Positions 20,095-64,000 of a DNA stretch of 64,000 nt are shown here, one piece after another (position 1 is the first letter of the stretch; each line of letters starts with the position of its first letter). Origin of the DNA: a virus. The DNA is taken from IMG/VR virus record IMGVR_UViG_3300044984_003188; one strand, given 5' to 3'. The notes under the pieces are model-generated. The model was not told the origin of the DNA, did not search any database, and saw only the letters and a list, made by a program, of their open reading frames with translations. The translations under genes were made by a program, and so were the position numbers.

Positions 20095-20303
20095 TGGAAA
20101 ATTTAAAAGTAAAAGATAATAGAAGTCTAGTACGACAAAAAGCTTCTAGTGCAATATTGACGGTTGATAATCAAAGCCTCCTGCGCTATAGGGAGGAAAG
20201 ATCCAGAGCCAATAAATTAAATAATGTGCACGAAGAAAATATTAAACTTAAGAATGAATTAGATGAGATTAAATCTCTAATCCAAGGATTATTAACTAGA
20301 TGA
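20094..20303 (+). CDS. Small conserved hypothetical protein (coiled-coil C-terminus)
   Basis: KVKDNRSLVR...S.AIL....LKNELDEIKSLI; overlapping starts and stops with both neighbours. Confidence 0.6.
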   Translation: MENLKVKDNRSLVRQKASSAILTVDNQSLLRYREERSRANKLNNVHEENIKLKNELDEIKSLIQGLLTR

Positions 20304-22141
20304 TAACTGTTTCACAGGTAATTAATACTCAGAGCTTTGGTGTTTGGCTTGAAAGAACAAATCAAGTCATCAGCATCATTTCGCAAAATACTGTCACAAC
20401 AGATTCAAGTACCGGTGGTTCACTTACCACTGGTAATTCTTATGTCAATGGCTACTTTGGTGCAAATTATGTTACCGTAAATACCGCCATTCGAGGTGGT
20501 AATCTTACTACCAGCGCCACACTTTCTATTAGTTCAAATGCAACTTTTAGTGGTGCAGTCAATACTGCAGGTCTTGTAAGTGCACTTAGTGGGATCAACA
20601 TAACCGGATCCGCAAACGTAAGCTCAGTACTAAATGTTGGTTCAAATGTTTCGGTGAATACCACACAAATAGGCATAGGTAATTCTACGGTAAATTCTGC
20701 TATCACAGCTGCTCAAATGGTGGTGGCAAACTCTACCAATACCGCAACATTGAATCCAATAAGTTTGACCATTGGTACCACCGTAGTAAACACCTCTACT
20801 GTGGCTGTTGGAACATCAACTGTAAATTCTAGCTTGGTAAATACGGCCGCTATCAATATTACGGGTCAAGTAAATGCTGCAACTTTGTTTGTTTCCACAT
20901 CAGCAAATGTAGGATCAAATGTTCAGCTCACTACAAGTCAATTGGCAATTGGTAATTCAACCGTAAATGCTATAGCAAATTCTACCACAATAAGATTAGC
21001 AAATTCTACAAATACCGTTACCTTAACCCCTGTCAGCATTACATTAGGCACAACTGTTGTAAACACAACCGCACTTGCTTTGGGATCATCATTCACAGCA
21101 AATAGTACTAGAGTTGTTCTTGCCACTACTGCTGGTTTACAGGTGAACGGATCAATCGGTACCGCTGGGCAATTCTTGCTCTCTAATGGCACAACTGCTT
21201 ATTGGTCTACGGTCACCACAGGATCTGTTACTTCTGTCGCCTCTGGTTCTGGTTTGACTGGTGGTCCAATCACATCAACTGGCACAATTTCAGTCCTTGC
21301 AAATTCTGGTATAATTGCAAATACCACTGGTATATTTGTAAATCCAAATACTGGTATAGTAGTAAATACCGCTGGTGTTTTTGTAAATGCAACTTATATT
21401 GGCACTCTCTCTGTTAATAATGCAACTTATCTGAATGGTCAATTAGCATCTTACTATACAAATGCCACAAATATTACCACAGGCACATTAAATACCGCTA
21501 GACTTCCTGCGACTGTAAATGTTGCAACTCTTCTGAATGTCGGTGCAAATGTAAATATCAATACATCCACCATATTTGTCGGCAATTCTTCCACAAATGT
21601 TATTGCTAATTCTTCCGCTCTTACTATTGGCGCAACATCTGTCAATAGCACAATGGTTAATTCCGGATCCGTAAATACCAATCTGCTTGCCGTATCAGGG
21701 AATGCCACATTTGCTAGCAATGTCAGTCTGACTTCTGGTTTACTTGTCGTTACAAATAATGCTACATTCTCTTCAAATGTTTCGGTTGCAAAAGTCCTTC
21801 TGGTTAATAATTCGCACTATTCTTCAAATGCTTATACTTTCAATAATTCAACTGCACGTGCTGTAGTTGATGTATTTGATACCGCAACTTATAGATCAGC
21901 TGAATATTTGATCCAGGTCACAGATTCTACAACAACCCCAAGGTCTTATCAGATAACTAAAATGACAGTTGTTCATGATAATACCACACCTTACTCAACC
22001 GAATATAGCAATATCTACACAAATATTCCAATGGGAAATTTTGATGTAAATATTGACACCGCAAATAATTTTCAATTGAGATTTACACCTACAACTGCAA
22101 ATTCTGTGGTCAAACTTTCTAGAAATTCAATTGTGGTTTAA
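20300..22141 (+). CDS. Fibre-like virion protein, N/S/T/V-rich
   Basis: N-terminal SFGVWLERTN anchor; repetitive beta-rich body; C-terminal DTATYRSAEYLIQ domain. Confidence 0.65.
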   Translation: MITVSQVINTQSFGVWLERTNQVISIISQNTVTTDSSTGGSLTTGNSYVNGYFGANYVTVNTAIRGGNLTTSATLSISSNATFSGAVNTAGLVSALSGINITGSANVSSVLNVGSNVSVNTTQIGIGNSTVNSAITAAQMVVANSTNTATLNPISLTIGTTVVNTSTVAVGTSTVNSSLVNTAAINITGQVNAATLFVSTSANVGSNVQLTTSQLAIGNSTVNAIANSTTIRLANSTNTVTLTPVSITLGTTVVNTTALALGSSFTANSTRVVLATTAGLQVNGSIGTAGQFLLSNGTTAYWSTVTTGSVTSVASGSGLTGGPITSTGTISVLANSGIIANTTGIFVNPNTGIVVNTAGVFVNATYIGTLSVNNATYLNGQLASYYTNATNITTGTLNTARLPATVNVATLLNVGANVNINTSTIFVGNSSTNVIANSSALTIGATSVNSTMVNSGSVNTNLLAVSGNATFASNVSLTSGLLVVTNNATFSSNVSVAKVLLVNNSHYSSNAYTFNNSTARAVVDVFDTATYRSAEYLIQVTDSTTTPRSYQITKMTVVHDNTTPYSTEYSNIYTNIPMGNFDVNIDTANNFQLRFTPTTANSVVKLSRNSIVV

Positions 22142-48941: not shown

Positions 48942-50380
48942 TGGATACGGTAACTATAAGAAAATATGATGAGGTATATAATAAAATAGTCTGTGATCCA
49001 GGTATTGCCATGGAACTTGCAGATCATTTTACGTTTGAAGTGCCTGGTGCAAAGTTTATGCCTACTGTTCGTAATAAGATATGGGATGGAAAAATAAGAC
49101 TTCTTAATCCACTCACATGTCTACTTTATTCCGGATTAGCAGAAGAAGTCATAAAGTTTTGCCAATCCCGTAAATATGAATGTGAATTAGATGGAATCTC
49201 TAGTGATGAAGAGTTTTCAATCCATGAAGCACAAAAAAGGATAGAATCTCTAGGATTGACTAAAACTCCCAGAGATTATCAATTAGATGCATATGTACAT
49301 GCAATCAGAAAAAGAAGAGCAGTACTGCTCTCTCCAACAGCATCTGGTAAATCACTCATAATATATCTCATAACAAAACATTATAAAGAAAAAACTCTTA
49401 TCATAGTTCCAACTACATCTCTTGTTCATCAAATGGCATCCGACTTCAAAGACTATGGTCTAGAAGAAGAATGCCACAAGATTATGAGTGGTGAAGAAAA
49501 GATTACAAATAAAAACATTGTGATTTCAACATGGCAGTCTATATATAAACTTCCACAAAGTTGGTTCAATCAATTTAAATTAGTGATTGGAGATGAAGCA
49601 CATCTATTTAAAGCCAAATCTCTCACTACTATTATGACTAAACTACCCAATTGTAAATACAAATATGGTTTTACAGGGACCTTAGACGGCACCGATACTA
49701 ATAAGTTAGTATTAGAAGGGCTGTTTGGTCCGGTCAGAAAAGTTACAACCACAGCAGAACTCATGAATAAGGGAACTGTGGCTCAATTGCTAATTAAAGC
49801 ATTGGTTCTTAAATATACCAATGAAGATAAAAAACTTGTAAGCAATTATGACTATCAAGCTGAACTAGATTTTATAGTCACTAATCCAAAAAGAAATAAT
49901 TTTGTTAAAAATCTAGTTCTTTCACTTAAAGGTAATACCCTTGTATTCTTTAACTTTGTTGATAAACATGGTAAAATTCTATATGATTTAGTAAAATCTG
50001 AAGCCAAAGATAGAAATGTTTATTTTATATCCGGTGAAGTAAGTGCCTTAGAAAGAGAAGAAATAAGAAAGTCAGTCGAGAATGATAGAAATTGTATTAT
50101 CTTTGCTAGCTCTGGCACTAGTTCTACTGGTGTTAACATGGTAAATTTACAAAATATAGTATTCACAAGCCCATCAAAATCTAGGGTTAGAAATCTACAA
50201 TCTATCGGGCGTGCTCTCAGAAAATCTGAAACCAAAGTAAATGCCACTCTTTATGATTTAGCTGATGATTTGACCTGGAAGTCAAAAAGAAACCACACAC
50301 TCAATCACTTTATTGAAAGGATCAAAATCTATAGCTCCGAGTCATTTGACTACAAGATTTATAATATTGATCTAAACTAA
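48941..50380 (+). CDS. uvsW: DNA helicase UvsW
   Basis: WDGKIRL; SPTASGKS; GDEAH; GFTGT; QSIGRALR. Confidence 0.96.
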   Translation: MDTVTIRKYDEVYNKIVCDPGIAMELADHFTFEVPGAKFMPTVRNKIWDGKIRLLNPLTCLLYSGLAEEVIKFCQSRKYECELDGISSDEEFSIHEAQKRIESLGLTKTPRDYQLDAYVHAIRKRRAVLLSPTASGKSLIIYLITKHYKEKTLIIVPTTSLVHQMASDFKDYGLEEECHKIMSGEEKITNKNIVISTWQSIYKLPQSWFNQFKLVIGDEAHLFKAKSLTTIMTKLPNCKYKYGFTGTLDGTDTNKLVLEGLFGPVRKVTTTAELMNKGTVAQLLIKALVLKYTNEDKKLVSNYDYQAELDFIVTNPKRNNFVKNLVLSLKGNTLVFFNFVDKHGKILYDLVKSEAKDRNVYFISGEVSALEREEIRKSVENDRNCIIFASSGTSSTGVNMVNLQNIVFTSPSKSRVRNLQSIGRALRKSETKVNATLYDLADDLTWKSKRNHTLNHFIERIKIYSSESFDYKIYNIDLN

Positions 50381-56455: not shown

Positions 56456-56824
56456 ATGACAAAATATTCACTCACATTTCAAGAAATTAATGCACTTACC
56501 AGTATTCAAAATAAGCTTTATGGTCAATCCAAGGAAATGGGTTGGCATGATAAACCACGTGAAATTGGAACTAGAATTGCACTTTGTCATTCTGAGCTTT
56601 CTGAAGCACTAGAAGGTGCTCGTAAAAATCTAATGGATGATCATTTGCCTTCTCGCAAGATGCTTGAAGTTGAACTAGCAGATTGTATTATTCGTATCTT
56701 TGATCTTGCCGGTAGTGAAGGTCTAGACGTTGCTGGTGCTATTGCTGAAAAGCATGACTATAATGCCAATCGTGCTGATCACAAGCGTGAAAATCGTGCA
56801 GCAGCTGGTGGTAAAGCTTTCTAA
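56456..56824 (+). CDS. MazG-like nucleotide pyrophosphohydrolase
   Basis: ALCHSELSEALEG...EVELADCIIRIFD...K..YN..R. Confidence 0.85.
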   Translation: MTKYSLTFQEINALTSIQNKLYGQSKEMGWHDKPREIGTRIALCHSELSEALEGARKNLMDDHLPSRKMLEVELADCIIRIFDLAGSEGLDVAGAIAEKHDYNANRADHKRENRAAAGGKAF

Positions 56825-56826
56825 AC

Positions 56827-57276
56827 ATGCTACACGATAGTGAGCGTAGAACAAAAACTGGTGCACTTGGTGAAAAATTGGTTGCACGTTACTATCGCTC
56901 ACTTGGTTTCACAGTTGAAGAATCATTAAATCTTAATGATAGCAAAAAAGATATGCTTGTAGGTAATAAAACATGTGAAGTAAAAACACAACAAGTTTGG
57001 CATAAAGAAAACTCTTTTTCTATCAGGGTAAATCAACTAAAAAAATGTAATGATGTTGATATTCTAATATTTGTGGAAACTCCTTCTAAATACAATCAAA
57101 ATACCGTTCGACTACATGAAATGCCAAAAGATAAACGAAAAGTCAAAACACTTACAACATCAGATGGTCGAACAATGCACTTATTCTCTAAGAATAATGC
57201 TATTCTATTAAAAACTATTACTGATGAAGATATCGTAAAACAATTTGAACGATATTCACTTTCAAAATGGAAATAA
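56827..57276 (+). CDS. PD-(D/E)XK-family nuclease-like protein
   Basis: G.LGE..V..YY...G..V.......KDM......EVKT pattern. Confidence 0.6.
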   Translation: MLHDSERRTKTGALGEKLVARYYRSLGFTVEESLNLNDSKKDMLVGNKTCEVKTQQVWHKENSFSIRVNQLKKCNDVDILIFVETPSKYNQNTVRLHEMPKDKRKVKTLTTSDGRTMHLFSKNNAILLKTITDEDIVKQFERYSLSKWK

Positions 57277-57581
57277 AGATGGAAATTAAAGACACATCAA
57301 AAGATTACGAGGACTTAATTGGCTTTAAATCAAAAGAAACAATCCCTGTAAGTCTTGCTGAATTTCTTGGCGAGGAAATTGATACCAAACCAAGAATCAA
57401 ACCAAAACCGGTGGATAAAGAATATCCAGAAGATTGGCAAAATCTTTTTGTGAATTTTAGATCGGAAGAAGATTATATTCAGTTCATGAAAAAAATCAAT
57501 AAAAATCCAGATCCAAAAACATCTGTTTTTGTTTATACAAAAGATAAACAAAATAGTATCCTTGATTTTATGGAATCTTAA
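57267..57581 (+). CDS. Hypothetical protein associated with the glycosyltransferase gene
   Basis: WQNLFVNFRSEEDY.QF...I; similar to the next ORF. Confidence 0.6.
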   Translation: MEIKMEIKDTSKDYEDLIGFKSKETIPVSLAEFLGEEIDTKPRIKPKPVDKEYPEDWQNLFVNFRSEEDYIQFMKKINKNPDPKTSVFVYTKDKQNSILDFMES

Positions 57582-57583
57582 TT

Positions 57584-57847
57584 ATGCTGTTAGCTGAAAC
57601 CGTTGAAGATCTTCAAAATGAATGGCGCAATCCATACCTTCAATGGTATGCAGCAGGTATGCCAGCATTTAATACGTACGATATTTCACCATATAAACAG
57701 ATTAAACTTAAGTTTAAAACTATGGAAGATCGTCAAGCATTTGCCGACTATCTAGAATATCCATTGACAGAAAAAACAAATGTGATATGGTATCCAGATA
57801 AGGGTAGAGAGAAGAATATTATGAACAGGATTATTGAAGATGAATGA
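57584..57847 (+). CDS. Hypothetical protein associated with the glycosyltransferase gene
   Basis: W..AGMPAF....PYKQIKLKFKTMEDR.AF...L...LTEKT..IWYP. Confidence 0.6.
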   Translation: MLLAETVEDLQNEWRNPYLQWYAAGMPAFNTYDISPYKQIKLKFKTMEDRQAFADYLEYPLTEKTNVIWYPDKGREKNIMNRIIEDE

Positions 57848-58784
57848 TATCTATCATACTAGATTTCCAATTTATATTATTTCCAAAGGTCGGTGGGAGT
57901 CTAGGTATACTTCCAAGGCTCTAGAAAGCATGGGTGTTCCGTATTTCATTGCGGTTGAACCTCAAGAGTATGAGCAGTATGCTGCAGTCATTGATCCCAA
58001 AAAAGTTTTAACACTACCTTTTTCCAATCATGGTAAAGGTTCTGGACCAGCCCGTAATTGGTGCTGGGAACATTCGCAGGCTAATGGATTTAAACGCCAT
58101 TGGCTAATGGATGATAATATTTTTGAGTTCTGGCGCTTTCATAATAACAAACGCTATAGAATTGGTCGTGGTTCTGCTTGTTTTAGATCAGTAGAAGATT
58201 TTGTTGATCGCTTTGAAAATGTTGCTCTAGCAGGACTTCAATACAAGTTCTTTTGTGTTGATGATTATCCTTATCCTCCTTATATTCTAAATACACGAAT
58301 TATGTCATGCTTTCTTATTGATAACGATTGCCCACATAAGTGGCGTGGTCGCTATAATGAGGACGTTGATCTTTCTATTCGAGTACTTAAGGAAGGTCTA
58401 TGCACAATGCTTTTCTACTCTTTTCTATGTGGTAAAGCAAGAACCGGCACAATTAAAGGTGGTAACACTTCAGAAATTTACAACAATTATCAAGAAGATG
58501 CATCACTAAAAAAGTCTCAAATGCTTCTAGAGATGCACCCTGATGTGGTGACTCTACAGGAAAGATATGGTAGAATCCATCATCAAGTTGACCTTGAAGC
58601 AATCATTAATAAAAATGGTCAACCTGCTAGACTAAATCCACTTATTCTCAAAAAAGATGTAAAAATTGTGAATAAAAATGATAACTACGGTATGAAACTA
58701 ATTCGTGAGTTTGGCACTGATCAAGCTTATGAGGATACCGAATATTCAATTGAAAAATATCCAAGCGGTAGGAAAAACTTTTAA
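57840..58784 (+). CDS. GT-A glycosyltransferase, TET-associated (TAGT)/GREB1-like family
   Basis: PIYIISKGR; VEPQEY..Y; GPARNWCWEHS; HWLMDDNI; WRGRYNEDVDLSIRVLK.G; KGGN. Confidence 0.75.
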   Translation: MNDIYHTRFPIYIISKGRWESRYTSKALESMGVPYFIAVEPQEYEQYAAVIDPKKVLTLPFSNHGKGSGPARNWCWEHSQANGFKRHWLMDDNIFEFWRFHNNKRYRIGRGSACFRSVEDFVDRFENVALAGLQYKFFCVDDYPYPPYILNTRIMSCFLIDNDCPHKWRGRYNEDVDLSIRVLKEGLCTMLFYSFLCGKARTGTIKGGNTSEIYNNYQEDASLKKSQMLLEMHPDVVTLQERYGRIHHQVDLEAIINKNGQPARLNPLILKKDVKIVNKNDNYGMKLIREFGTDQAYEDTEYSIEKYPSGRKNF

Positions 58785-59740
58785 TGGCTCATATTTTTAT
58801 TACAGGTATTGCTGGTTTTATTGGCTTTCATCTAGCACAAAAGCTACATGAAGCTGGTCATGAAGTTTCTGGGATGGATAATTTTAATGATTACTATGAT
58901 GTAACTCTTAAAAATACACGTGCTGATATTTTAGATAAAAATTATATTTTTGTTTATCGACGTAATTTACTAGATAAAAATGATACTTTCTACACTTTAA
59001 AGAATGAAAACCCAGATATGGTCATTCATCTAGCTGCATATGCTGGTGTCCGACATTCATATGATCATGCTATGGATTATATCCAAAATAATATTGTTGC
59101 TACACAGAATCTTATTGAAGTGCTTGAAGAACTTAATATCAATAAAGCAATCTATGCTTCTACTTCTTGTGTCATGGCAGGCAATCAACTACCATGGAAA
59201 GAAGATGAACCTACTGGGCATCAACTAAACCCATATGGATATACCAAGCGCACAAATGAATGTCAGTTTAAAACTTCCAAGATCAAGCAAAATATTGGTC
59301 TAAGGTTCTTTACTGTTTATGGTCCATATGGTCGACCTGATATGGCGCTATTTCAGTTTGCCGAAGCTGCTGTAAAAGGTAAAACCATCGATGTTTATAA
59401 CTACGGTGATATGAAACGTGATTTTACCTATGTAGATGATATTGTGAATGGAATTGAAATCTTGATGAATCATATTTTAAATACTGAAGAATCACAAGCA
59501 GAAATCTACAACATTGGTCGTGGTCAACAAGTTCAGCTTATGGACTTTATTTCAGAGATCGAAAAGAATATGGGTCATGAAATCAAGAAAAATCTAGTAC
59601 CACGCCATCCTGCTGATACACTAGAAACTTGGTCAGATACCACAAAGCTCCAAGCACTTGGATGGAAACCAAAAGTTTCTATTTCAGAAGGTGTTGCTAA
59701 ATTTTGTGAGTGGTATAAGCAATATTATAAGGTGAACTAA
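58784..59740 (+). CDS. NAD-dependent nucleotide-sugar epimerase, UDP-glucuronate 4-epimerase-like
   Basis: TGIAGFIG; HLAAYAGVRHS; YGYTK; LRFFTVYGPYGRPDMA; RDFTYVDDIV. Confidence 0.85.
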   Translation: MAHIFITGIAGFIGFHLAQKLHEAGHEVSGMDNFNDYYDVTLKNTRADILDKNYIFVYRRNLLDKNDTFYTLKNENPDMVIHLAAYAGVRHSYDHAMDYIQNNIVATQNLIEVLEELNINKAIYASTSCVMAGNQLPWKEDEPTGHQLNPYGYTKRTNECQFKTSKIKQNIGLRFFTVYGPYGRPDMALFQFAEAAVKGKTIDVYNYGDMKRDFTYVDDIVNGIEILMNHILNTEESQAEIYNIGRGQQVQLMDFISEIEKNMGHEIKKNLVPRHPADTLETWSDTTKLQALGWKPKVSISEGVAKFCEWYKQYYKVN

Positions 59741-60189
59741 TGAAATGGCACTGGAACTATCTAAATCTTGCTAAAGAGATTTCAACTTGGTCTAAGGACC
59801 CATCCACAAAAATTGGTGCTGTTGCGGTGGGTAAACATGGTCAGATATTAGCGACCGGTTATAATGGCTTTCCTCGTAAAATTAAAGATACTGAGAAAAG
59901 ACTTAATGATAAAGAAATTAAATACTCATACACAATTCATGGAGAAATGAATTGCATTTATAATGCAACGCTCACTGGTGTAAGTTTACATAAAGCAACT
60001 CTTTATGTACATGGATTACCAGTTTGCTCCGAATGTGCTAAGGGTATTGCGCAAGTTGGCATTAAGCGTGTTTTTGCTTGTCATCCAATAAATGTTAATG
60101 TTAAATGGGAACAATCAAACTACTTAAGTCAACAAATTTTCAATGAAGCTGGAATTGAATATAACAGCATAATCTCTGAAAGACAATAA
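59740..60189 (+). CDS. cd: dCMP deaminase
   Basis: SKDPSTKIGAV; GYNGFPR; HGEMN; PVCSEC. Confidence 0.9.
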   Translation: MKWHWNYLNLAKEISTWSKDPSTKIGAVAVGKHGQILATGYNGFPRKIKDTEKRLNDKEIKYSYTIHGEMNCIYNATLTGVSLHKATLYVHGLPVCSECAKGIAQVGIKRVFACHPINVNVKWEQSNYLSQQIFNEAGIEYNSIISERQ

Positions 60190-60192
60190 AAT

Positions 60193-60585
60193 ATGAATTA
60201 TGAAAATGATACATATCACTACTATAATGGTCTAAAAGCTTCTGATAATCCAGATCCACTAGATACTTCGGAATATACTTTACAACAATATAAAACTTAC
60301 AAGAATACCCCAAGCATTGATTATAAATACTCTGAAGATATGATTATTCAGGATCTATCTGAGTACATTAATTGTACCTATGGTGAGCACTATAAAGCAC
60401 AAGATGAAATTGAATGCTTTGATGCTTGGATTGCCCTAGGTACTGCTTCCGGCACATTTCGTGATAATGCAATGAAATATCTATGGCGATATGGCAAAAA
60501 GAACGGATCTAATAAAGATGATTTAATGAAAGCTTTGCATTATATCATGTTACTACTTCACAATGATTTTTATAAAAAGGGCTAA
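60193..60585 (+). CDS. DUF3310-like protein (related to T7 gp1.7 nucleotide kinase)
   Basis: HY....IECFD......F...NAMKYLWRYGKKNG...DLMKALHY. Confidence 0.7.
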   Translation: MNYENDTYHYYNGLKASDNPDPLDTSEYTLQQYKTYKNTPSIDYKYSEDMIIQDLSEYINCTYGEHYKAQDEIECFDAWIALGTASGTFRDNAMKYLWRYGKKNGSNKDDLMKALHYIMLLLHNDFYKKG

Positions 60586-60589
60586 ATGA

Positions 60590-61438
60590 ATGGAAATTAA
60601 AATTGATATGGATGTCCTCCGCCAGAGGAAGTTATTTGTAGCCACACCCATGTACGGTGGGCAATGCGCTGGTATGTTTACCAAATCAGTAGCAGATTTA
60701 GCCGCTATTTGCTCTGCAAATGGTCTGGATCTTAGATCATATTTTCTCTTTAACGAATCTCTTATTACTAGAGCTAGAAACTATTGTGTCGATGAGTTCA
60801 TGCGCTCTGATTGCACACATATGATGTTCATTGACTCTGATATTGGATTTGATCCACGAGATATTATTGCAATGCTTGCCCTTCAATCAGAAGAATCTGA
60901 ATATGATGTTCTTGCAGGACCATACCCAAAGAAAACAATTTCTTGGGAAAAGATCAAGATGGCAGTCGATAAGGGTATTGCGGATGAAGACCCATCGGTT
61001 CTAGAAAAGTTTGTTGGTGATTATGTTTTCAATCCAAAAGCCAATACAACACAAGTAAGAATTGATGAACCAGTCGAAGTTTCTGAAGTCGGTACTGGGT
61101 TCATGATGACCAGACGTTCAGCTTTTGAAAAGTTTGCAAAGGCTTATCCTGATTATTCTTATAGACCAGACCATGTTCGTACCGAACATTTTGATGGTTC
61201 TCGTGAAATCATGCAGTACTTCCAAGCTGAAATTGATCCTGCTTCAAAGCGTTATCTATCTGAAGACTACTGGTTCTGCCAAAAGCTAATGGCTATCGGT
61301 GGAAAGATTTGGTATTGCCCATGGATGAAACTACAACATGTTGGTTCTTATATCTTTGGTGGATCACTTGCTGACCTAGCATCTATTGGAGCCCCTGCTA
61401 CTGCAGATCCTTCTCAACTCCGTAAAGGAAAGAAATAA
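60590..61438 (+). CDS. GT-A-fold glycosyltransferase-like protein
   Basis: LFVATPMYGG; NESLITRARN; HMMFIDSDIGF (DxD); GTGFMM..R; YLSEDYWFC; L.HVG. Confidence 0.7.
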   Translation: MEIKIDMDVLRQRKLFVATPMYGGQCAGMFTKSVADLAAICSANGLDLRSYFLFNESLITRARNYCVDEFMRSDCTHMMFIDSDIGFDPRDIIAMLALQSEESEYDVLAGPYPKKTISWEKIKMAVDKGIADEDPSVLEKFVGDYVFNPKANTTQVRIDEPVEVSEVGTGFMMTRRSAFEKFAKAYPDYSYRPDHVRTEHFDGSREIMQYFQAEIDPASKRYLSEDYWFCQKLMAIGGKIWYCPWMKLQHVGSYIFGGSLADLASIGAPATADPSQLRKGKK

Positions 61439-61442
61439 TATT

Positions 61443-62039
61443 ATGAATAAAGTTTATATTCTACTTGATCGTTCTGGTTCAATGGCTTCAATGTGGAAGC
61501 AAGCCATTGACGGTATCAATTCTTATGTAAGGAATATTGAAAATACCCAAATTATGATTGCTGCTTTTGATACAGTTGATTATACAGTTGTAAGAAATTG
61601 CACAAAGGAAAACTGGGATCCATTAAGTTATAATGAAATTACTCCCCGTGGTGGAACTCCACTTCTAGATGCTTCTGGTAGAATCATGTGGTCTATGCAT
61701 GATTCTAAGGCTAAAAGAGCAATCTTAGTTGTAGTCACTGATGGGCATGAAAATTCATCAACCAAGTTCAAAGCATCTGAAATCAAGGACATGACTAAGA
61801 AGTTGACAACTGATTTAAATTATGATATAGTCTTCCTAGGTGCTAATTTTGATGGCATTGGTGAAGTTGCAAATAAAAATTTCGGGTGGAGTGACCAATC
61901 TAGAATGGTGCAAACCTCTGTTAGAGGATTTGGTGATGTAATGGTTGGTCTAAGCGCTAAGACCTCAGATTATTTTACCACTGGTGCAAAAGCCACTGCA
62001 TTATATAATGCAGATGAATTAAGTAAAGCAAAGTCCTAA
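61443..62039 (+). CDS. von Willebrand factor A domain protein (ATG at 61443)
   Basis: MIDAS motif LLDRSGSM; GGTPLLDA; VVTDGHENSS; FLGAN. Confidence 0.85.
   Translation: MNKVYILLDRSGSMASMWKQAIDGINSYVRNIENTQIMIAAFDTVDYTVVRNCTKENWDPLSYNEITPRGGTPLLDASGRIMWSMHDSKAKRAILVVVTDGHENSSTKFKASEIKDMTKKLTTDLNYDIVFLGANFDGIGEVANKNFGWSDQSRMVQTSVRGFGDVMVGLSAKTSDYFTTGAKATALYNADELSKAKS
61803..61831 (+). promoter_or_regulatory. Sigma70-type promoter inside the vWA gene, upstream of gp45
   Basis: TTGACA-17 nt-TATAGT with extended -10 TG. Confidence 0.6.
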
Positions 62040-62058
62040 TAGGAGATTATATTATATC

Positions 62059-62709
62059 ATGAAGCTAAGTGCCCGTACTCTACATCTACTAAAGAACTTC
62101 AGCACAATCAATCCTTCCATTGTGCTGAAGCCGGGAGGGATTGCAACAACAATCTCTCCTAACAAGACTATTCTAGCCCGTGCATCCATTGGTGACGAAA
62201 TTCCAAATGTTGTAGCAATTTATAATCTCAGTAGGTTTATTTCTACACTATCATTATTTGAAAATCCTGATTTGGATTTTAGTGATAAGTCCGTCCGAAT
62301 TTCCGATGGAAATCGTAGTGTTGTGTATCATTATGCTGATGCATCTATTATTATGGTGCCACCTGAAAAGCAAATTAAGCTTCCATCAACAGATGCTGAA
62401 TGCTTTATTACCAATAAGGACTTTCAGAATATCACAAAAGCACTTAGTGTTCTAGGTCTACCAGAAATTGCCATTGTTGGCGATGGTGAAAATATTTCAC
62501 TGCAAGCAATTGATACCAAGAATCCAGCGGATACATTCAGTATTATTGTTGGTCAATCTTCAAATGTTTTTCGTGCCATTTTCAAGTCCGAAAATCTCAA
62601 AATTATGGATGGTGATTACACCGTATCTATTTCCTCTAAAGGTATTTCTCAGTTTGTTGGTACTGAGGTGTCTTATTGGATTGCGGTTGAGGCTACTTCT
62701 ACTTTTTAA
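62059..62709 (+). CDS. gp45: Sliding clamp
   Basis: MKLS..TL.LLKNFSTIN.SI; IYNL..F; ENLKI..GDY.V.IS; YWIAVE. Confidence 0.94.
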   Translation: MKLSARTLHLLKNFSTINPSIVLKPGGIATTISPNKTILARASIGDEIPNVVAIYNLSRFISTLSLFENPDLDFSDKSVRISDGNRSVVYHYADASIIMVPPEKQIKLPSTDAECFITNKDFQNITKALSVLGLPEIAIVGDGENISLQAIDTKNPADTFSIIVGQSSNVFRAIFKSENLKIMDGDYTVSISSKGISQFVGTEVSYWIAVEATSTF

Positions 62710-62718
62710 TTGAATTGT

Positions 62719-62749
62719 GTGCCTAATCTTATGGATTAGGCACTTTATT
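62719..62749 (+). terminator. Stem-loop between gp45 and gp44 (weak terminator or processing site)
   Basis: GTGCCTAATC-TTATG-GATTAGGCAC, a perfect 10-bp stem, followed by TTTATT. Confidence 0.6.
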
Positions 62750-62762
62750 ATGGAGATTGTGA

Positions 62763-63701
62763 ATGCTTGAACATATTCAGTGGGTTGAAAAGTATCGTCC
62801 AAAGAAGGTAGCAGATACCATTCTTCCGTGCGAGCTTAAGTCAATCTTTCAGGGATTTGTAAATGCTGGTAATATTAATAACATGACTCTAGCAGGCGGT
62901 GCAGGTGTTGGTAAAACAACTATTGCACGTGCCATGCTAGAGGAACTTGGTTGTGATTATATTGTTATCAACGGTTCAATGAACGGTAATATTGATACAC
63001 TACGAAATGAAATTCTACAATTTGCTTCATCTGTTTCACTTATGGGTGGCAGAAAGTATGTCATTCTAGATGAGGCTGATTATCTTAACCCAAACTCTAC
63101 ACAGCCAGCTCTTCGTAACTTTATGGAAGAGTTTTCTAAGAACTGTGGTTTTATTCTTACCTGCAATTATAAAGATCGAATTATTAAACCACTACATTCT
63201 CGAGCACCAATTATTGAGTTTCGTATTCCAAAGAAAGAAATGCCAAAACTTGCTACACAATTTATGAAGCGAGTGGAGATGATTCTTACTACTGAGAATG
63301 TAAACTATGATAAACAGGCAGTTGTGGAAGTCATCCAAAAATTCTTCCCTGATTGGCGCCGAATCCTAAATGAACTCCAGACATACTCAATTAATGGTAA
63401 AATTGACTCTGGTATTTTTAGTTCTTTCACCACTTCCACAGTGAAGGAAGTGATTGGTCATTGCAAGACTAAAAACCTAGAAGGCATCCGTAAGTGGATT
63501 CATGATAATTCGGATTCTGATTCAACATCAATCTTTAGGGCTGTTTATGACAACTCTTGTGAACTATTCACAAAACGTTCTATTCCAGCTTTAATTTTAA
63601 AGATTGCTGATTATCAGTACAAGGCGGCATTTGTTGCCGATTCCGAGATCAATCTCATGGCTTTCTTTGTTGAAATTTGCATGGAGTGTGAATTTGTATG
63701 A
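62763..63701 (+). CDS. gp44: Clamp loader large subunit
   Basis: WVEKYRP; GGAGVGKTT; ILDEADYL; QPALRNFMEEFS.NC; PLHSR. Confidence 0.96.
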   Translation: MLEHIQWVEKYRPKKVADTILPCELKSIFQGFVNAGNINNMTLAGGAGVGKTTIARAMLEELGCDYIVINGSMNGNIDTLRNEILQFASSVSLMGGRKYVILDEADYLNPNSTQPALRNFMEEFSKNCGFILTCNYKDRIIKPLHSRAPIIEFRIPKKEMPKLATQFMKRVEMILTTENVNYDKQAVVEVIQKFFPDWRRILNELQTYSINGKIDSGIFSSFTTSTVKEVIGHCKTKNLEGIRKWIHDNSDSDSTSIFRAVYDNSCELFTKRSIPALILKIADYQYKAAFVADSEINLMAFFVEICMECEFV

Positions 63702-64000
63702 GCCAAACATCAACCCTATTTGGGATTGTAGAGCATAGGGAAGAGCCAACTGAAAAATCCACCCTTAATGTGTGGACTTTCATTGGTGATATCTCAAAGG
63801 ATAAACAATATCTTTTAGATGATAATACAGCACGTCTATATGAGCCATGGATTGTAAATAAATCTTTTATGGCGCATCCAGATACACTGGTGTTTGCAGA
63901 ACAAGCAAATAGAATGCATCATTTAGATAAAAAGTTGCAACATGACTTCATGTTTTATTCCGTTGAAGCACGAGCCAAAAGGTATAAACCATGGCTCAAA
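63698..64000 (+). CDS. gp62: Clamp loader small subunit (truncated by window end)
   Basis: ATG overlaps the gp44 stop; reads ...YEPWIVNKSFMAHPDTLVFAEQANRMHHLDKKLQHDF...KRYKPWLK. Confidence 0.85.
   Translation, partial: MSQTSTLFGIVEHREEPTEKSTLNVWTFIGDISKDKQYLLDDNTARLYEPWIVNKSFMAHPDTLVFAEQANRMHHLDKKLQHDFMFYSVEARAKRYKPWLK

What the first reader, a model, noticed from the sequence alone, without database searches (positions are those of the whole stretch)
56456..61438. Compact nucleotide/sugar cluster suggesting DNA hypermodification
Seen: nine tightly coupled genes encoding a MazG-like pyrophosphatase, a PD-(D/E)XK nuclease, two small paralogues, a TAGT/GREB1-like glycosyltransferase, an NDP-sugar epimerase, dCMP deaminase, DUF3310 and a second GT-A enzyme, shortly upstream of the clamp and clamp-loader genes. 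Established: TAGT-family enzymes are linked to glycosylation of hydroxymethyl-pyrimidines in DNA, and MazG-like enzymes, dCMP deaminase and gp1.7-like kinases reshape dNTP pools in phages with modified bases. Inference: the cluster removes a canonical nucleotide and adds a sugar to a modified pyrimidine. No hydroxymethylase or TET/JBP gene is visible in this window.
Basis: partly seen in the sequence, partly recalled or inferred. Interest (0 to 1): 0.75.

Follow-up and report, generated by a model that had tools for sequence, protein, structure and literature searches.

The report
Clamp-linked split DNA sugar transferase module
A T4-like environmental phage carries, inside its DNA-replication genes, a two-piece TAGT sugar transferase with a partner enzyme that probably makes UDP-galacturonic acid, which points to sugar-decorated DNA even though no known enzyme for the acceptor base was found.

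Summary
They are not one conserved pathway. Across 70 related viral contigs the constant unit is a 104-aa ORF, an 87-aa ORF, the TAGT gene, and usually an NDP-sugar enzyme. The MazG-like, nuclease-like, dCMP deaminase and DUF3310 genes come and go. The second GT-A is a lineage core gene that TAGT-less phages also carry.

New points:
- The 87-aa ORF is the detached N-terminal domain of TAGT. It is fused in 21 of 67 relatives and in all six cultured-phage homologues aligned.
- The 104-aa ORF is its paralogue. It ends in a tail like that of the phage's own DNA polymerase, which in T4 binds the sliding clamp.
- In other phages the same domain sits on a ParB_N protein directly before TAGT.
- The epimerase keeps the signature residues of UDP-glucuronate 4-epimerases.

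A GT-A plus epimerase pair that puts hexuronic acid on 5hmC DNA is already published, so the kind is known.

Unresolved: no ThyA-like hydroxymethylase or TET/JBP appears in about 135-150 kb of this genome or 170 kb of a relative. ThyX plus dCMP deaminase indicate ordinary thymine, and GGCC/CGCG are avoided. DNA glycosylation is the best reading (about 0.5), with the acceptor unknown. Other first-stage notes of this scan describe this same stretch.

The parts
56456..56824 (+). MazG-like all-alpha NTP pyrophosphohydrolase, 122 aa. Variable accessory gene, not part of the conserved core.
   Evidence: phrog_5658, E 1.3e-55. No Pfam hit. Acidic motifs visible. Present in 15 of 70 related loci.
56827..57276 (+). 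Probable PD-(D/E)XK-fold nuclease, 149 aa. Variable.
   Evidence: Atlas search: PDDEXK_16 lead and TM 0.62 to a SmaI-like domain. D..ExK motif readable. Present in 12 of 70 loci.
57267..57581 (+). 'o104', an acidic 104-aa protein. It has a conserved N-terminal DTSxDYDDL motif and a copy of the TAGT N-terminal domain. Its C-terminal tail is hydrophobic-acidic: ...SILDFMES here, ...G(I/L)L(D/N/S)FFGD in relatives. Proposed sliding-clamp adaptor.
   Evidence: hhalign against o87: 96% probability, E 1.8e-9. Present in 61 related loci, next to o87-TAGT wherever the contig reaches that far. Family alignment. The phage's own gp43 ends ...TLESFFG or ...TLEDFFG. This kind of tail is rare: 6 of 934 ORFs, 4 of them gp43 or o104. 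No homologue in the syntenic small ORFs of DLP6, Cr30 or phiM12. Predicted complex with the gp45 trimer: weak support, 0.49 against a best control of 0.21.
57584..57847 (+). 'o87', the detached N-terminal domain of TAGT, 87 aa. Motifs W..PY.QWYAAGMPxF and LTxKTNVxWYP.
   Evidence: Fused in frame to TAGT in 21 of 67 relatives, giving 405-411 aa proteins. It forms the N-terminus of the TAGT homologues of Kuja, GD1, PTm1, Aeromonas 65 and Vibrio 1.076.O. Profile search: 2441 cluster representatives; of 45 long hits, 9 carry ParB_N and 8 carry TAGT. In two unrelated contigs a protein with this domain directly precedes TAGT.
57834..58784 (+). TAGT-family GT-A glycosyltransferase, catalytic part, 316 aa from TTG 57834. 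The likely start is the ATG at 57840, which overlaps the end of o87.
   Evidence: PF20691, 163.8 bits against a cut-off of 27.5. phrog_842. GT-A fold in the model of a fused relative. Invariant WLMDDN and NEDVDLS motifs. A public gene call that starts at 57930 cuts off the conserved N-terminus.
58784..59740 (+). SDR most like UDP-glucuronate 4-epimerases, 318 aa. Predicted to supply UDP-galacturonate.
   Evidence: Best solved relatives are 5u4q (272 bits), B. cereus UGAepi 6zl6 (167 bits) and MoeE5. The equivalents of BcUGAepi Thr126, Tyr149, Lys153, Thr178 and Arg185 are kept (role of Arg185 from PMC12338863). It scores below the GalE equivalog cut-off, 141 against 262 bits. Start and stop codons overlap TAGT and the deaminase by 1 nt.
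59740..60189 (+). dCMP deaminase, 149 aa. An ordinary dTMP-supply gene. Variable.
   Evidence: PF00383, E 2e-18. HGE and CSEC zinc motifs. ThyX-NrdA-NrdB module elsewhere in the same or a near-identical genome. Present in about 15 of 70 loci.
60193..60585 (+). DUF3310 protein, 130 aa. Related to families labelled as T7 gp1.7-like nucleotide kinases. Role here unknown.
   Evidence: PF11753, E 2.4e-8. phrog_480, plus weaker hits to 'nucleotide kinase' PHROGs. Present in about half of the related loci.
60590..61438 (+). Second glycosyltransferase with a GT-A fold, 282 aa, with a DSD motif. A conserved lineage gene placed upstream of the clamp gene. Independent of TAGT. Acceptor unknown.
   Evidence: phrog_1574, E 4.7e-61. 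Model pLDDT 84; Foldseek hits to STIV A197, the LH3 GT domain, mimivirus R699 and GalNAc-Ts. 66% identical in DLP6, 57% in Cr30 and 48% in phiM12, at the same position.
61443..62039 (+). VWA-domain protein, 198 aa. Context only; found only in the closest relatives.
   Evidence: PF13519. phrog_7371. Matched in L006 and L018 only.
62059..62709 (+). gp45 sliding clamp. Proposed docking partner of o104.
   Evidence: PF09116. Terminator-like hairpin at 62719-62743. Complex prediction.
62763..64000 (+). Clamp loader gp44 (62763-63701) and the start of gp62 (63698 onward). Context.
   Evidence: PF00004, PF21328 and PF16790.

Best explanation
The functional unit is 57267-59740, not all nine genes. It is a two-piece TAGT-family GT-A glycosyltransferase: the catalytic ORF plus its detached N-terminal domain, o87. 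An extra paralogue of that domain, o104, comes with it, and so does a translationally coupled UDP-glucuronate 4-epimerase-like enzyme.

Proposed mechanism:
1. The epimerase converts host UDP-GlcA to UDP-GalA.
2. o87 plus the catalytic ORF form the active transferase.
3. o104 carries the same domain and a C-terminal tail like that of the phage's DNA polymerase. It docks the enzyme on the gp45 sliding clamp.
4. Newly replicated phage DNA is then decorated with a uronic-acid sugar, probably to evade host nucleases.

Shown:
- gene identities
- the split/fusion relationship of o87 and TAGT
- the paralogy of o104 and o87
- epimerase signature residues
- conservation and synteny of the core unit
- absence of known hydroxymethylase or TET families in the parts examined

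Inferred:
- DNA is the acceptor
- the donor sugar is a uronic acid
- o104 tethers the enzyme to the clamp

Unknown: which base accepts the sugar and how it is prepared.

The flanking MazG-like, nuclease-like, dCMP deaminase and DUF3310 genes are variable nucleotide-metabolism accessories. The downstream GT-A is a separate, older lineage gene.
For: Family and precedent:
- TAGT scores far above the Pfam cut-off.
- The characterised relatives named in the papers I read act on DNA. These are the T2/T6 beta-glucosyl-HMC-alpha-glucosyltransferase (PMC13216743) and JGT-like GT-A enzymes.
- GT-A plus epimerase pairs are epimerase-dependent DNA glycosylases. One pair gives hexuronic-acid-5hmC.

Epimerase:
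- It is closest to UDP-GlcA 4-epimerases and keeps the Tyr149, Lys153, Thr126, Thr178 and Arg185 equivalents.
- Relatives replace it with a UDP-Glc dehydrogenase plus a UXS-like SDR and a second TAGT. UDP-GlcA chemistry is therefore a theme of the lineage.

Conserved core:
- o104-o87-TAGT is the constant block across the 70 loci wherever the contig reaches that far.
- o87 is fused to TAGT in 21 of 67 relatives, and in the six cultured-phage homologues aligned.

DNA context:
- The module lies among replication genes here. It directly follows the DNA polymerase gene in L049.
- In henriette it lies between the clamp loader and the dUTPase/polymerase genes, and in GD1 it follows the helicases.
- In other phages the o87 domain is fused to ParB_N and sits directly before TAGT.

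Clamp link:
- The o104 tail matches the phage's own gp43 tail.
- T4 gp43, gp33 and gp55 bind gp45 through such hydrophobic-acidic C-termini (PMC2988020).
- T4 alpha-GT binds gp45 (PMC13216743).
- GD1's TAGT itself ends ...DIEDFMC.
- The complex prediction of the gp45 trimer with o104 gave weak support: ipSAE 0.49 against a best control of 0.21. The runs agreed in at least 78% of contacts, and the partner pLDDT was at least 52. That mark was reached by 58 of 80 solved complexes and 2 of 110 mismatched pairs. At 0.60 or below, only 7 of those solved complexes passed, and both mismatches did. A solved clamp-peptide complex exists, so the pass may reflect likeness to it.
Against: - No PF00303 or PF12851 gene was found in five relative contigs, up to 170 kb. 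The PF12851 search rang in no control genome, so its sensitivity here is unproven.
- No such family appeared in the precomputed Pfam lists over about 135-150 kb of this or near-identical genomes. PHROG scans of unannotated ORFs there found none either.
- ThyX plus dCMP deaminase argue for canonical thymine.
- GGCC is depleted (O/E 0.26 in the window, 0.54 downstream) and so is CGCG (0.19 and 0.09). This argues against blanket cytosine protection.
- o104 and o87 look acidic by eye, which is unusual for DNA binders.
- In the NEB enzymes the active-site motif is R...DDD...EDY/F. Here it reads DDN and EDV.
- The same TAGT subfamily occurs in cultured phages without a hydroxymethylase: Aeromonas 65 and Aeh1, henriette and GD1. 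No DNA modification of these phages came up in the papers I read.
- One o87-like protein lies beside a Type ISP/GmrSD defence locus with no TAGT among the genes shown.
Confidence: 0.5

Rival explanations
1. All nine genes form one pre-replicative hypermodification pathway. MazG removes a canonical dNTP. The deaminase and a gp1.7-like kinase reshape the pools. A hydroxymethylase encoded elsewhere makes an hm-pyrimidine, which the two GTs then glycosylate.
For: - The gene labels are right.
- In Pyle et al.'s contig mining, dCMP deaminase was specifically associated with ThyS- or 5mYOX-containing GT neighbourhoods.
- T4 uses a dCTPase, a hydroxymethylase and a dNMP kinase for hmC (PMC2993671).
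- Part of the genome is unseen: the region upstream of the window start and any gaps between the walked contigs.
Against: - MazG, the nuclease-like ORF, the deaminase and DUF3310 are each absent from many TAGT loci.
- No ThyA-family or TET/JBP gene was found in about 135-150 kb of this genome or in a 170-kb relative.
- ThyX-NrdAB is present, so the deaminase has an ordinary job.
- The second GT is conserved in TAGT-less phages.
- GGCC and CGCG are avoided.
Confidence: 0.12
2. The TAGT pair, the second GT-A, or both glycosylate something other than DNA. Candidates are virion proteins, a host envelope polymer that contains galacturonate, or phage tRNAs. The position in the replication module is only synteny.
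For: - No acceptor-base pathway was found.
- About 65% of mined GT contigs lack a neighbouring base-modification enzyme, and the authors allow for other acceptors.
- Foldseek neighbours of both GTs include protein- and teichoic-acid-glycosylating GT-As.
- In Vibrio phage 1.076.O the TAGT lies between the portal and head-morphogenesis genes. In Aeromonas 65 it lies among tRNA genes.
- N-X-S/T sequons are modestly enriched in the fibre and baseplate ORFs: 240 observed against 193 expected, z about 4.
- The phage carries other sugar and lipid genes, including a GT4 and an aldolase.
Against: - The characterised TAGT-family enzymes named in the papers I read act on DNA.
- The o87 domain is shared with ParB_N proteins placed directly before TAGT.
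- The o104 tail matches the polymerase's clamp-binding tail.
- The module sits in replication modules of several unrelated phages.
- No signal peptide or membrane segment is evident by eye in TAGT or o87; I ran no predictor.
Confidence: 0.25
3. There is no joint function. The stretch is a mosaic of independently acquired accessory genes in a hypervariable gap between gp46 and gp45. The split TAGT is a decaying gene.
For: - The region is a variable slot. DLP6, Cr30 and phiM12 hold different small ORFs there.
- TAGT is split, and gene content differs between close relatives.
Against: - The split form is conserved, with intact frames, in dozens of contigs at 65-94% identity. TAGT motifs are invariant.
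- Split partner-plus-TAGT pairs recur in unrelated phages.
- o104, o87 and TAGT co-occur strictly where the contig allows.
- TAGT and the epimerase are translationally coupled by a 1-nt overlap.
Confidence: 0.08

Closest known systems
'Subclass II' phage DNA-glycosylation clusters: a JGT-like GT-A paired with a sugar epimerase (Pyle et al., bioRxiv 10.1101/2023.12.21.572611; cited as Cell Rep 2024)
   Same: A GT-A/TAGT-type transferase lies directly beside an SDR epimerase. In the published pairs the epimerase is required, and one pair installs a hexuronic acid on 5hmC. Their mining also found neighbours such as gp45/clamp, DNA polymerase and dCMP deaminase.
   Different: The published clusters sit next to a C5-methyltransferase and a TET-like 5mYOX that make 5hmC. 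Neither is found here, nor is a ThyA-like enzyme. Here the enzyme is split into o87 plus the catalytic ORF, with an extra clamp-tail paralogue. The motif reads DDN/EDV instead of DDD/EDY. I could not compare sequences with their GT57 directly.
T2/T6 beta-glucosyl-HMC-alpha-glucosyltransferase, the founding TAGT (PF20691)
   Same: Same Pfam family, and a T4-like phage.
   Different: The T2/T6 enzyme adds a second glucose to glucosyl-hmC made by gp42 plus alpha-GT. This phage has no gp42 and none of the PF00303 family gp42 belongs to. I did not search for alpha-GT or beta-GT directly; none appeared in the Pfam lists. The donor here is probably a uronic acid rather than UDP-glucose. It is one of the 'solitary TAGT' cases noted as unexplained in PMC13216743.
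T4 alpha-glucosyltransferase and its binding to the gp45 clamp
   Same: A DNA sugar transferase in the replication/recombination gene block that binds the sliding clamp. Here a clamp-type tail sits on the TAGT-associated o104.
   Different: Alpha-GT has a GT-B fold, is unrelated in sequence and binds gp45 itself. Here the predicted tether is a separate small protein, and binding is predicted only weakly.
UDP-glucuronic acid 4-epimerases: B. cereus UGAepi (6zl6), MoeE5, Klebsiella 5u4q
   Same: Best sequence matches in the PDB. The catalytic Tyr-x3-Lys, the carboxylate-contacting Thr residues and the Arg185 equivalent are conserved.
   Different: Phage-encoded, with no assay. 5u4q is deposited under a dehydratase name. 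Relatives of this phage use a different SDR plus a UDP-Glc dehydrogenase.
ParB-like partners of phage DNA base-modifying enzymes (ParB-dependent T-dioxygenases, PMC13229309)
   Same: A DNA-associated accessory protein is encoded next to, and needed by, a DNA-modifying enzyme. In other phages the o87 domain is fused to ParB_N just before TAGT.
   Different: This window has no ParB_N domain and no dioxygenase. I did not test whether the ParB_N-o87 proteins belong to the published ParB group.

Membership tests
TAGT (Pfam PF20691) | Profile match above the curated cut-off over the whole domain | tested here: met
   163.8 bits against 27.5; profile positions 1-205 of 205. phrog_842, E 4e-49.
TAGT (Pfam PF20691) | GT-A fold | tested here: met
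   Model of the fused relative L049 (pLDDT 73.6). Foldseek hits to GT-A enzymes at E about 1e-5. The window's own protein was not folded.
TAGT (Pfam PF20691) | [quoted passage not shown] | tested here: inconclusive
   The motifs read SKGR, WLMDDN and NEDVDLS. They are invariant in the lineage and shared with cultured-phage homologues, so the acidic pairs are kept but the third positions differ.
TAGT (Pfam PF20691) | Genomic association with TET/JBP or a ThyA-like pyrimidine hydroxymethylase | tested here: not met
   No PF12851 or PF00303 in five relative contigs or in about 135-150 kb of this genome's Pfam lists. The PF12851 search had no positive control.
TAGT (Pfam PF20691) | Transfers sugar to DNA | not testable with these tools
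   Needs LC-MS or an enzyme assay.
GT-A plus epimerase 'subclass II' DNA hypermodification cluster (Pyle et al.) | GT-A gene adjacent to an SDR epimerase gene | tested here: met
   57834-58784 and 58784-59740 overlap by 1 nt.
GT-A plus epimerase 'subclass II' DNA hypermodification cluster (Pyle et al.) | Neighbouring C5-methyltransferase and 5mYOX | tested here: not met
   None among the window ORFs from 43.5 kb to the end or downstream.
UDP-glucuronate 4-epimerase | Closest to characterised members; Tyr-x3-Lys catalytic pair; carboxylate-binding Thr126/Thr178 and Arg185 (BcUGAepi numbering) | tested here: met
   6zl6 at 167 bits and MoeE5 at 119 bits, ahead of the GalE structures. The aligned residues are STS, YGYTK, FFTVYGP and GRPDMA. 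Role of Arg185.
UDP-glucose 4-epimerase GalE (TIGR01179 equivalog) | Score above the equivalog cut-off | tested here: not met
   141.2 bits against 262.3.
T4-type hmC pathway (gp42, gp56, gp1, glucosyltransferases) | dCMP hydroxymethylase of the thymidylate-synthase superfamily | tested here: not met
   No PF00303 match. ThyX is present instead.
T4-type hmC pathway (gp42, gp56, gp1, glucosyltransferases) | dCTPase and a dNMP kinase for the modified nucleotide | tested here: inconclusive
   MazG-like and DUF3310 genes exist. Their specificity is unknown and they are absent from many TAGT loci.
dCMP/cytidine deaminase (PF00383) | Profile match plus HxE and CxxC zinc motifs | tested here: met
   66.6 bits against 25. 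HGE and CSEC motifs present.
PD-(D/E)XK nuclease | Fold and D...(D/E)xK catalytic motif | tested here: inconclusive
   No HMM hit. Atlas structural TM 0.62 to a SmaI-like domain, and a PDDEXK_16 lead on 33% of one cluster's members. The motif was read by eye.
T4-type sliding-clamp ligands (gp43, gp33, gp55 C-terminal epitope) | Short hydrophobic-acidic extreme C-terminus resembling that of the phage's own polymerase | tested here: met
   The o104 family ends ...G(I/L)L(D/N/S)FFGD. gp43 ends ...TLE(S/D)FFG. Definition from PMC2988020.
T4-type sliding-clamp ligands (gp43, gp33, gp55 C-terminal epitope) | Binds gp45 | tested here: inconclusive
   Prediction only: weak support, 0.49 against a best control of 0.21.

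The most novel reading that the evidence does not exclude
A widespread two-component TAGT system attaches a uronic-acid sugar to phage DNA in phages that have no hydroxymethyl- or hydroxy-pyrimidine pathway. Its two parts are a small adaptor domain and a catalytic GT-A. The adaptor delivers the enzyme to DNA through ParB_N in some phages and through a sliding-clamp tail in T4-like ones. This would imply either a new acceptor base or atom, or an unrecognised precursor-making enzyme. It would also explain the many 'solitary TAGT' phages, including Aeromonas 65 and Aeh1, henriette and GD1.
Probability: 0.22. Interest if true: 0.8.

Novelty: new variant of a known kind. Interest (0 to 1): 0.6.

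Why it matters
Sugar-decorated DNA is a main way for phages to escape restriction enzymes and CRISPR, and it is a source of enzymes for DNA labelling. A recent paper counted 288 of 753 GT-bearing phage genomes with a TAGT homologue but no alpha-GT or beta-GT, and left their role open.

This locus offers concrete handles on that question:
- The enzyme comes in two parts, and the partner domain links it to DNA-bound proteins: ParB_N elsewhere, probably the sliding clamp here.
- The donor is probably UDP-galacturonate.
- Cultured relatives exist (Aeromonas phages 65 and Aeh1, Vibrio phage henriette) in which the DNA could be analysed directly.

If the DNA proves to be modified without any known precursor pathway, that would be a new chemistry. 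If it is not, the large 'solitary TAGT' group needs a non-DNA explanation.

Tried and rejected
Searches that found nothing or could not run:
- Megablast of the cluster against 50,697 phage records: no match.
- No whole genome is held for the window. Metagenome contigs could not be searched by family. I therefore walked the genome with nine lookups of contigs that encode identical proteins.
- Sequence search of solved structures found nothing for TAGT, MazG or DUF3310, and only chance hits for the second GT.
- Pfam at E up to 5 gave nothing for the MazG-like ORF, o149 or o104.
- The Atlas search gave no family for o87.
- A word-index search for longer o87 relatives found only one fused TAGT. 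The full profile search was needed.
- PF12851 rang in no control genome, so its silence is weak evidence.

Ideas considered and rejected:
- BLASTP of o104 against o87 showed nothing. Only profiles show the paralogy.
- o104 as the T4 late co-activator gp33. Both are small and acidic with a clamp tail. I rejected this because there is no PHROG or Pfam match. o104 shares its domain with o87. In L047 a single ORF joins the o104 N-terminal motif to the o87 domain. TAGT-less relatives have no homologue at the syntenic position.
- A programmed frameshift joining o87 to TAGT. It would need a +1 shift, and the linker simply differs by indels between fused and split forms. Ordinary gene fission is simpler.
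- ThyX acting as a hydroxymethylase. It is a typical ThyX (about 140 bits in relatives) and sits next to NrdA and NrdB. Nothing supports a changed function.
- A late promoter for the second GT. One TATAAATA lies 260 nt upstream, inside DUF3310, but the window's count of nine equals chance expectation.

Complex prediction of gp45 with o104: weak support only.

Full report
**What the window is**

All large ORFs lie on the + strand. The window encodes:
- the T4 prohead protease, scaffold and gp23
- UvsY and UvsW
- gp55, gp47 and gp46
- DNA ligase
- the gp45 clamp and the gp44/62 clamp loader

gp23 is 71% identical to that of Stenotrophomonas phage DLP6, and about 66% to those of Methylophilales, Pelagibacter and Sinorhizobium T4-like phages. 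This is an uncultured 'far-T4' myovirus of about 36% G+C. An identical copy of the cluster lies on JGI metagenome contigs of 44 and 91 kb.

**Observation**

The nine ORFs are exactly where stated, with gaps of 2-4 nt or overlaps of 1-14 nt. The labels are confirmed or plausible:
- MazG-like: phrog_5658 with no Pfam match.
- A probable PD-(D/E)XK protein.
- TAGT: PF20691, 164 bits.
- SDR epimerase, dCMP deaminase with intact zinc motifs, and DUF3310.
- A second enzyme whose model (pLDDT 84) has a GT-A fold.
- The two small ORFs are paralogues only at profile level: 96% probability, E 1.8e-9, over 46 columns.

**What is conserved**

A TAGT query recovered 70 related viral contigs at 65-94% identity. 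I mapped 19 window proteins onto them.
- Where the contig reaches that far, o104 (57267-57581), o87 (57584-57847) and TAGT travel together.
- An SDR usually follows them, and further on come the second GT-A, gp45 and gp44.
- MazG occurs in 15 loci, the nuclease-like ORF in 12, the deaminase in about 15 and DUF3310 in about half.
- The SDR is either the window's type or a different one at about 25% identity.
- In the 170-kb relative (L049) the order is DNA polymerase, o104, fused o87-TAGT, a UXS-like SDR, a second TAGT, an exonuclease, a UDP-glucose dehydrogenase, then the second GT-A and gp45. One search shows a similar layout.
- The second GT-A is 66%, 57% and 48% identical in DLP6, Cr30 and phiM12. 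These phages have no TAGT, and the gene lies between gp46 or the deformylase gene and gp45. It is a lineage core gene, not part of a TAGT pathway.

**The split enzyme**
- o87 is fused in frame to TAGT in 21 of 67 loci (405-411 aa). Otherwise it overlaps the TAGT start by up to 68 nt, usually 14-17.
- The same domain is the N-terminus of every cultured-phage homologue I aligned: Kuja gp32 and gp33, GD1 gp80, PTm1 gp209, Aeromonas 65 p128 and Vibrio 1.076.O. Its motifs are W..GMPxF and LTxKTxSIWYP.
- o87 plus the catalytic ORF is therefore one enzyme in two pieces.
- A public gene call that starts TAGT at 57930 removes the conserved RFPIYIISKGR segment. The real start is at 57834 or 57840.
- A profile search of 1.84 billion representatives found 2441 clusters with this domain.
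- Of 45 long hits, 9 carry ParB_N and 8 carry TAGT.
- In two unrelated contigs a protein ending in this domain, one of them a ParB_N protein, directly precedes a short TAGT gene. One of these lies in a replication module with ERF, DnaB, MT-A70 and SSB genes.
- One further example lies beside a Type ISP/GmrSD locus with no TAGT among the genes shown.

**The clamp link**
- The o104 family has a conserved N-terminal DTSxDYDDL motif, the shared domain, and a conserved extreme C-terminus...G(I/L)L(D/N/S)FFGD, or ...SILDFMES in the window.
- The phage's own DNA polymerase ends ...TLESFFG, and ...TLEDFFG in the relative.
- Among 934 ORFs of this genome and L049, such a tail occurs in six: gp43 twice, o104 twice, one 59-aa ORF and one that looks like chance.
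[quoted passage not shown] T4 alpha-GT co-purifies with gp45 (PMC13216743).
- GD1's TAGT itself ends ...DIEDFMC. In another T4-like group, the ORF placed before o87 ends ...FIDDFFS.
- A predicted complex of the gp45 trimer with o104 gave weak support. The score was 0.49 against a best control of 0.21, with at least 78% contact agreement between runs and a partner pLDDT of at least 52.
- The tool states that passes at this level are more often wrong than right unless the guess was already likely. A clamp-peptide complex is also solved, so the model may be drawing on memory.
- I treat the tether as a well-motivated inference, not a result.
- o104 is not gp33. It has no family match, it shares the o87 domain, and the TAGT-less relatives have no homologue at that position.

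**The donor sugar**
- The SDR's best solved relatives are 5u4q (272 bits), B. cereus UDP-GlcA 4-epimerase (167 bits) and MoeE5.
- It keeps the equivalents of Thr126, Tyr149, Lys153, Thr178 and Arg185.
- In BcUGAepi, Arg185 holds the carboxylate of UDP-GalA (PMC12338863).
- It fails the GalE equivalog cut-off.
- Relatives carry a UDP-glucose dehydrogenase and a UXS-like SDR instead. The lineage therefore builds its donors from UDP-GlcA.
- A published GT-A plus epimerase pair installs a hexuronic acid on 5hmC. An acidic sugar on DNA therefore has a precedent.

**The missing acceptor**
- PF00303 (which covers dCMP and dUMP hydroxymethylases and 5-hydroxy-dCMP synthase) and PF12851 gave no match in five relative contigs of 55-170 kb. 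ThyX was found in three of them.
- Walking from the window through contigs that encode identical proteins covered roughly 70-85 kb beyond its end. Together with the window, that makes about 135-150 kb.
- The precomputed Pfam lists there show RegA, NAD-salvage genes, gp43, UvsX, gp41, primase and a ThyX-NrdA-NrdB block. They show no ThyA-family or TET/JBP gene.
- PHROG scans of ten ORFs there (nine without an informative Pfam hit, plus ThyX) added none.
- dCMP deaminase plus ThyX is the ordinary route to dTMP.
- GGCC is depleted (O/E 0.26 in the window, 0.54 downstream), and so is CGCG (0.19 and 0.09). This would be unnecessary if every cytosine were protected. These sites contain no A or T, so the result says nothing about thymine or adenine modification.
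- The same TAGT subfamily occurs in cultured phages without a hydroxymethylase.
  - Aeromonas 65 and Aeh1 lack genes 42 and 56 (PMC2993671).
  - The only ThyA-family gene of phage 65 is td, next to frd.
  - Henriette's lies near genes for dihydrofolate reductase and thymidine kinase.
  - GD1's scores like a canonical synthase, at 408 bits.
- This matches the 'solitary TAGT' phages flagged as unexplained in PMC13216743, and the 65% of mined GT contigs with no neighbouring ThyS or 5mYOX.

**Verdict**

The best reading, at about 0.5, is a DNA-directed, probably clamp-tethered, two-piece TAGT that uses a UDP-GlcA-derived donor. The surrounding dNTP genes and the second GT-A are bystanders.

The main rival, at about 0.25, is a non-DNA acceptor. 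A mild sequon excess in the fibre proteins (240 observed against 193 expected) keeps virion glycosylation open, mainly for the second GT-A.

Against the published GT-A/epimerase clusters this is a new variant. It has a split architecture, a candidate clamp adaptor, and no known precursor pathway.

DLP6 has the second GT-A but no TAGT and no ThyA-family gene. Its DNA is reported to resist restriction enzymes. Its locus also has 0 GGCC sites where 55 are expected, so site avoidance may explain part of that resistance.

Noticed in passing
whole window; L082, L091, L097; L001: GGCC and CGCG are strongly under-represented against a Markov expectation. In the window: GGCC 16 observed against 60, CGCG 4 against 21. 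Downstream: 32 against 59 and 2 against 21. CCGG is close to expectation, and GCGC is not depleted (O/E 1.5 downstream). The 19-kb DLP6 locus has 0 GGCC against 55 expected. The distant relative L049 shows no depletion.
   Followed up: partly
window 6201-32644: N-X-S/T sequons in the nine large baseplate and fibre ORFs exceed the composition-matched shuffle expectation by about 24%: 240 observed against 193, combined z about 4. The strongest single ORF is 20300-22141, with 35 against 23.5. The excess is modest and could reflect beta-solenoid repeats rather than glycosylation.
   Followed up: partly
window 57834-57930: The public (JGI) gene call for TAGT starts at window 57930 (284 aa). That omits the conserved N-terminal RFPIYIISKGR segment. 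The conserved start overlaps the end of the 87-aa ORF.
   Followed up: yes
L082:5542-5721 (about 12 kb beyond the window's end): A 59-aa ORF ends ...DDGRILDMMD, another hydrophobic-acidic tail of the clamp-binding type. It could be a further small clamp ligand, or gp33-like.
   Followed up: no
L035:3124-6411: A different T4-like phage contig carrying o87-TAGT also encodes curli secretion components (CsgG, CsgF, a curlin-repeat protein and a FecR-domain protein), about 7 kb from gp23, with the TAGT genes in between.
   Followed up: no
L081:12184-12561 (- strand), about 1 kb beyond the window's end: A second, shorter cytidine/dCMP deaminase-family gene (125 aa) lies on the opposite strand just after RegA. 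The phage therefore has two deaminases.
   Followed up: no
protein P0076 (JGI sample 3300072015; no DNA was fetched): A 249-aa protein ending in the o87-like domain lies directly before a Type ISP restriction enzyme and a GmrSD-family gene. The domain is therefore not confined to TAGT neighbourhoods.
   Followed up: no
window 61443-62039: A VWA-domain ORF lies between the second GT-A and gp45, where DLP6 has DsbA. It is found only in the two closest relative contigs.
   Followed up: no
KU682439.2 (DLP6) 49878-50366: DLP6 has no ThyA-family gene. Its only thymidylate-synthase-like match is a weak ThyX-like one (36 bits) inside a 343-aa ORF. Its DNA is reported to resist restriction enzymes.
   Followed up: no
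L091:10861-15019; L082:15423-17203: Downstream auxiliary genes include a DUF2828/vWA (Ro60-like) protein, a NadR-like NMN adenylyltransferase-NUDIX protein, NAMPT, PstS, RpiB, AdoMet decarboxylase, and a metallophosphoesterase plus GT4 pair.
   Followed up: no
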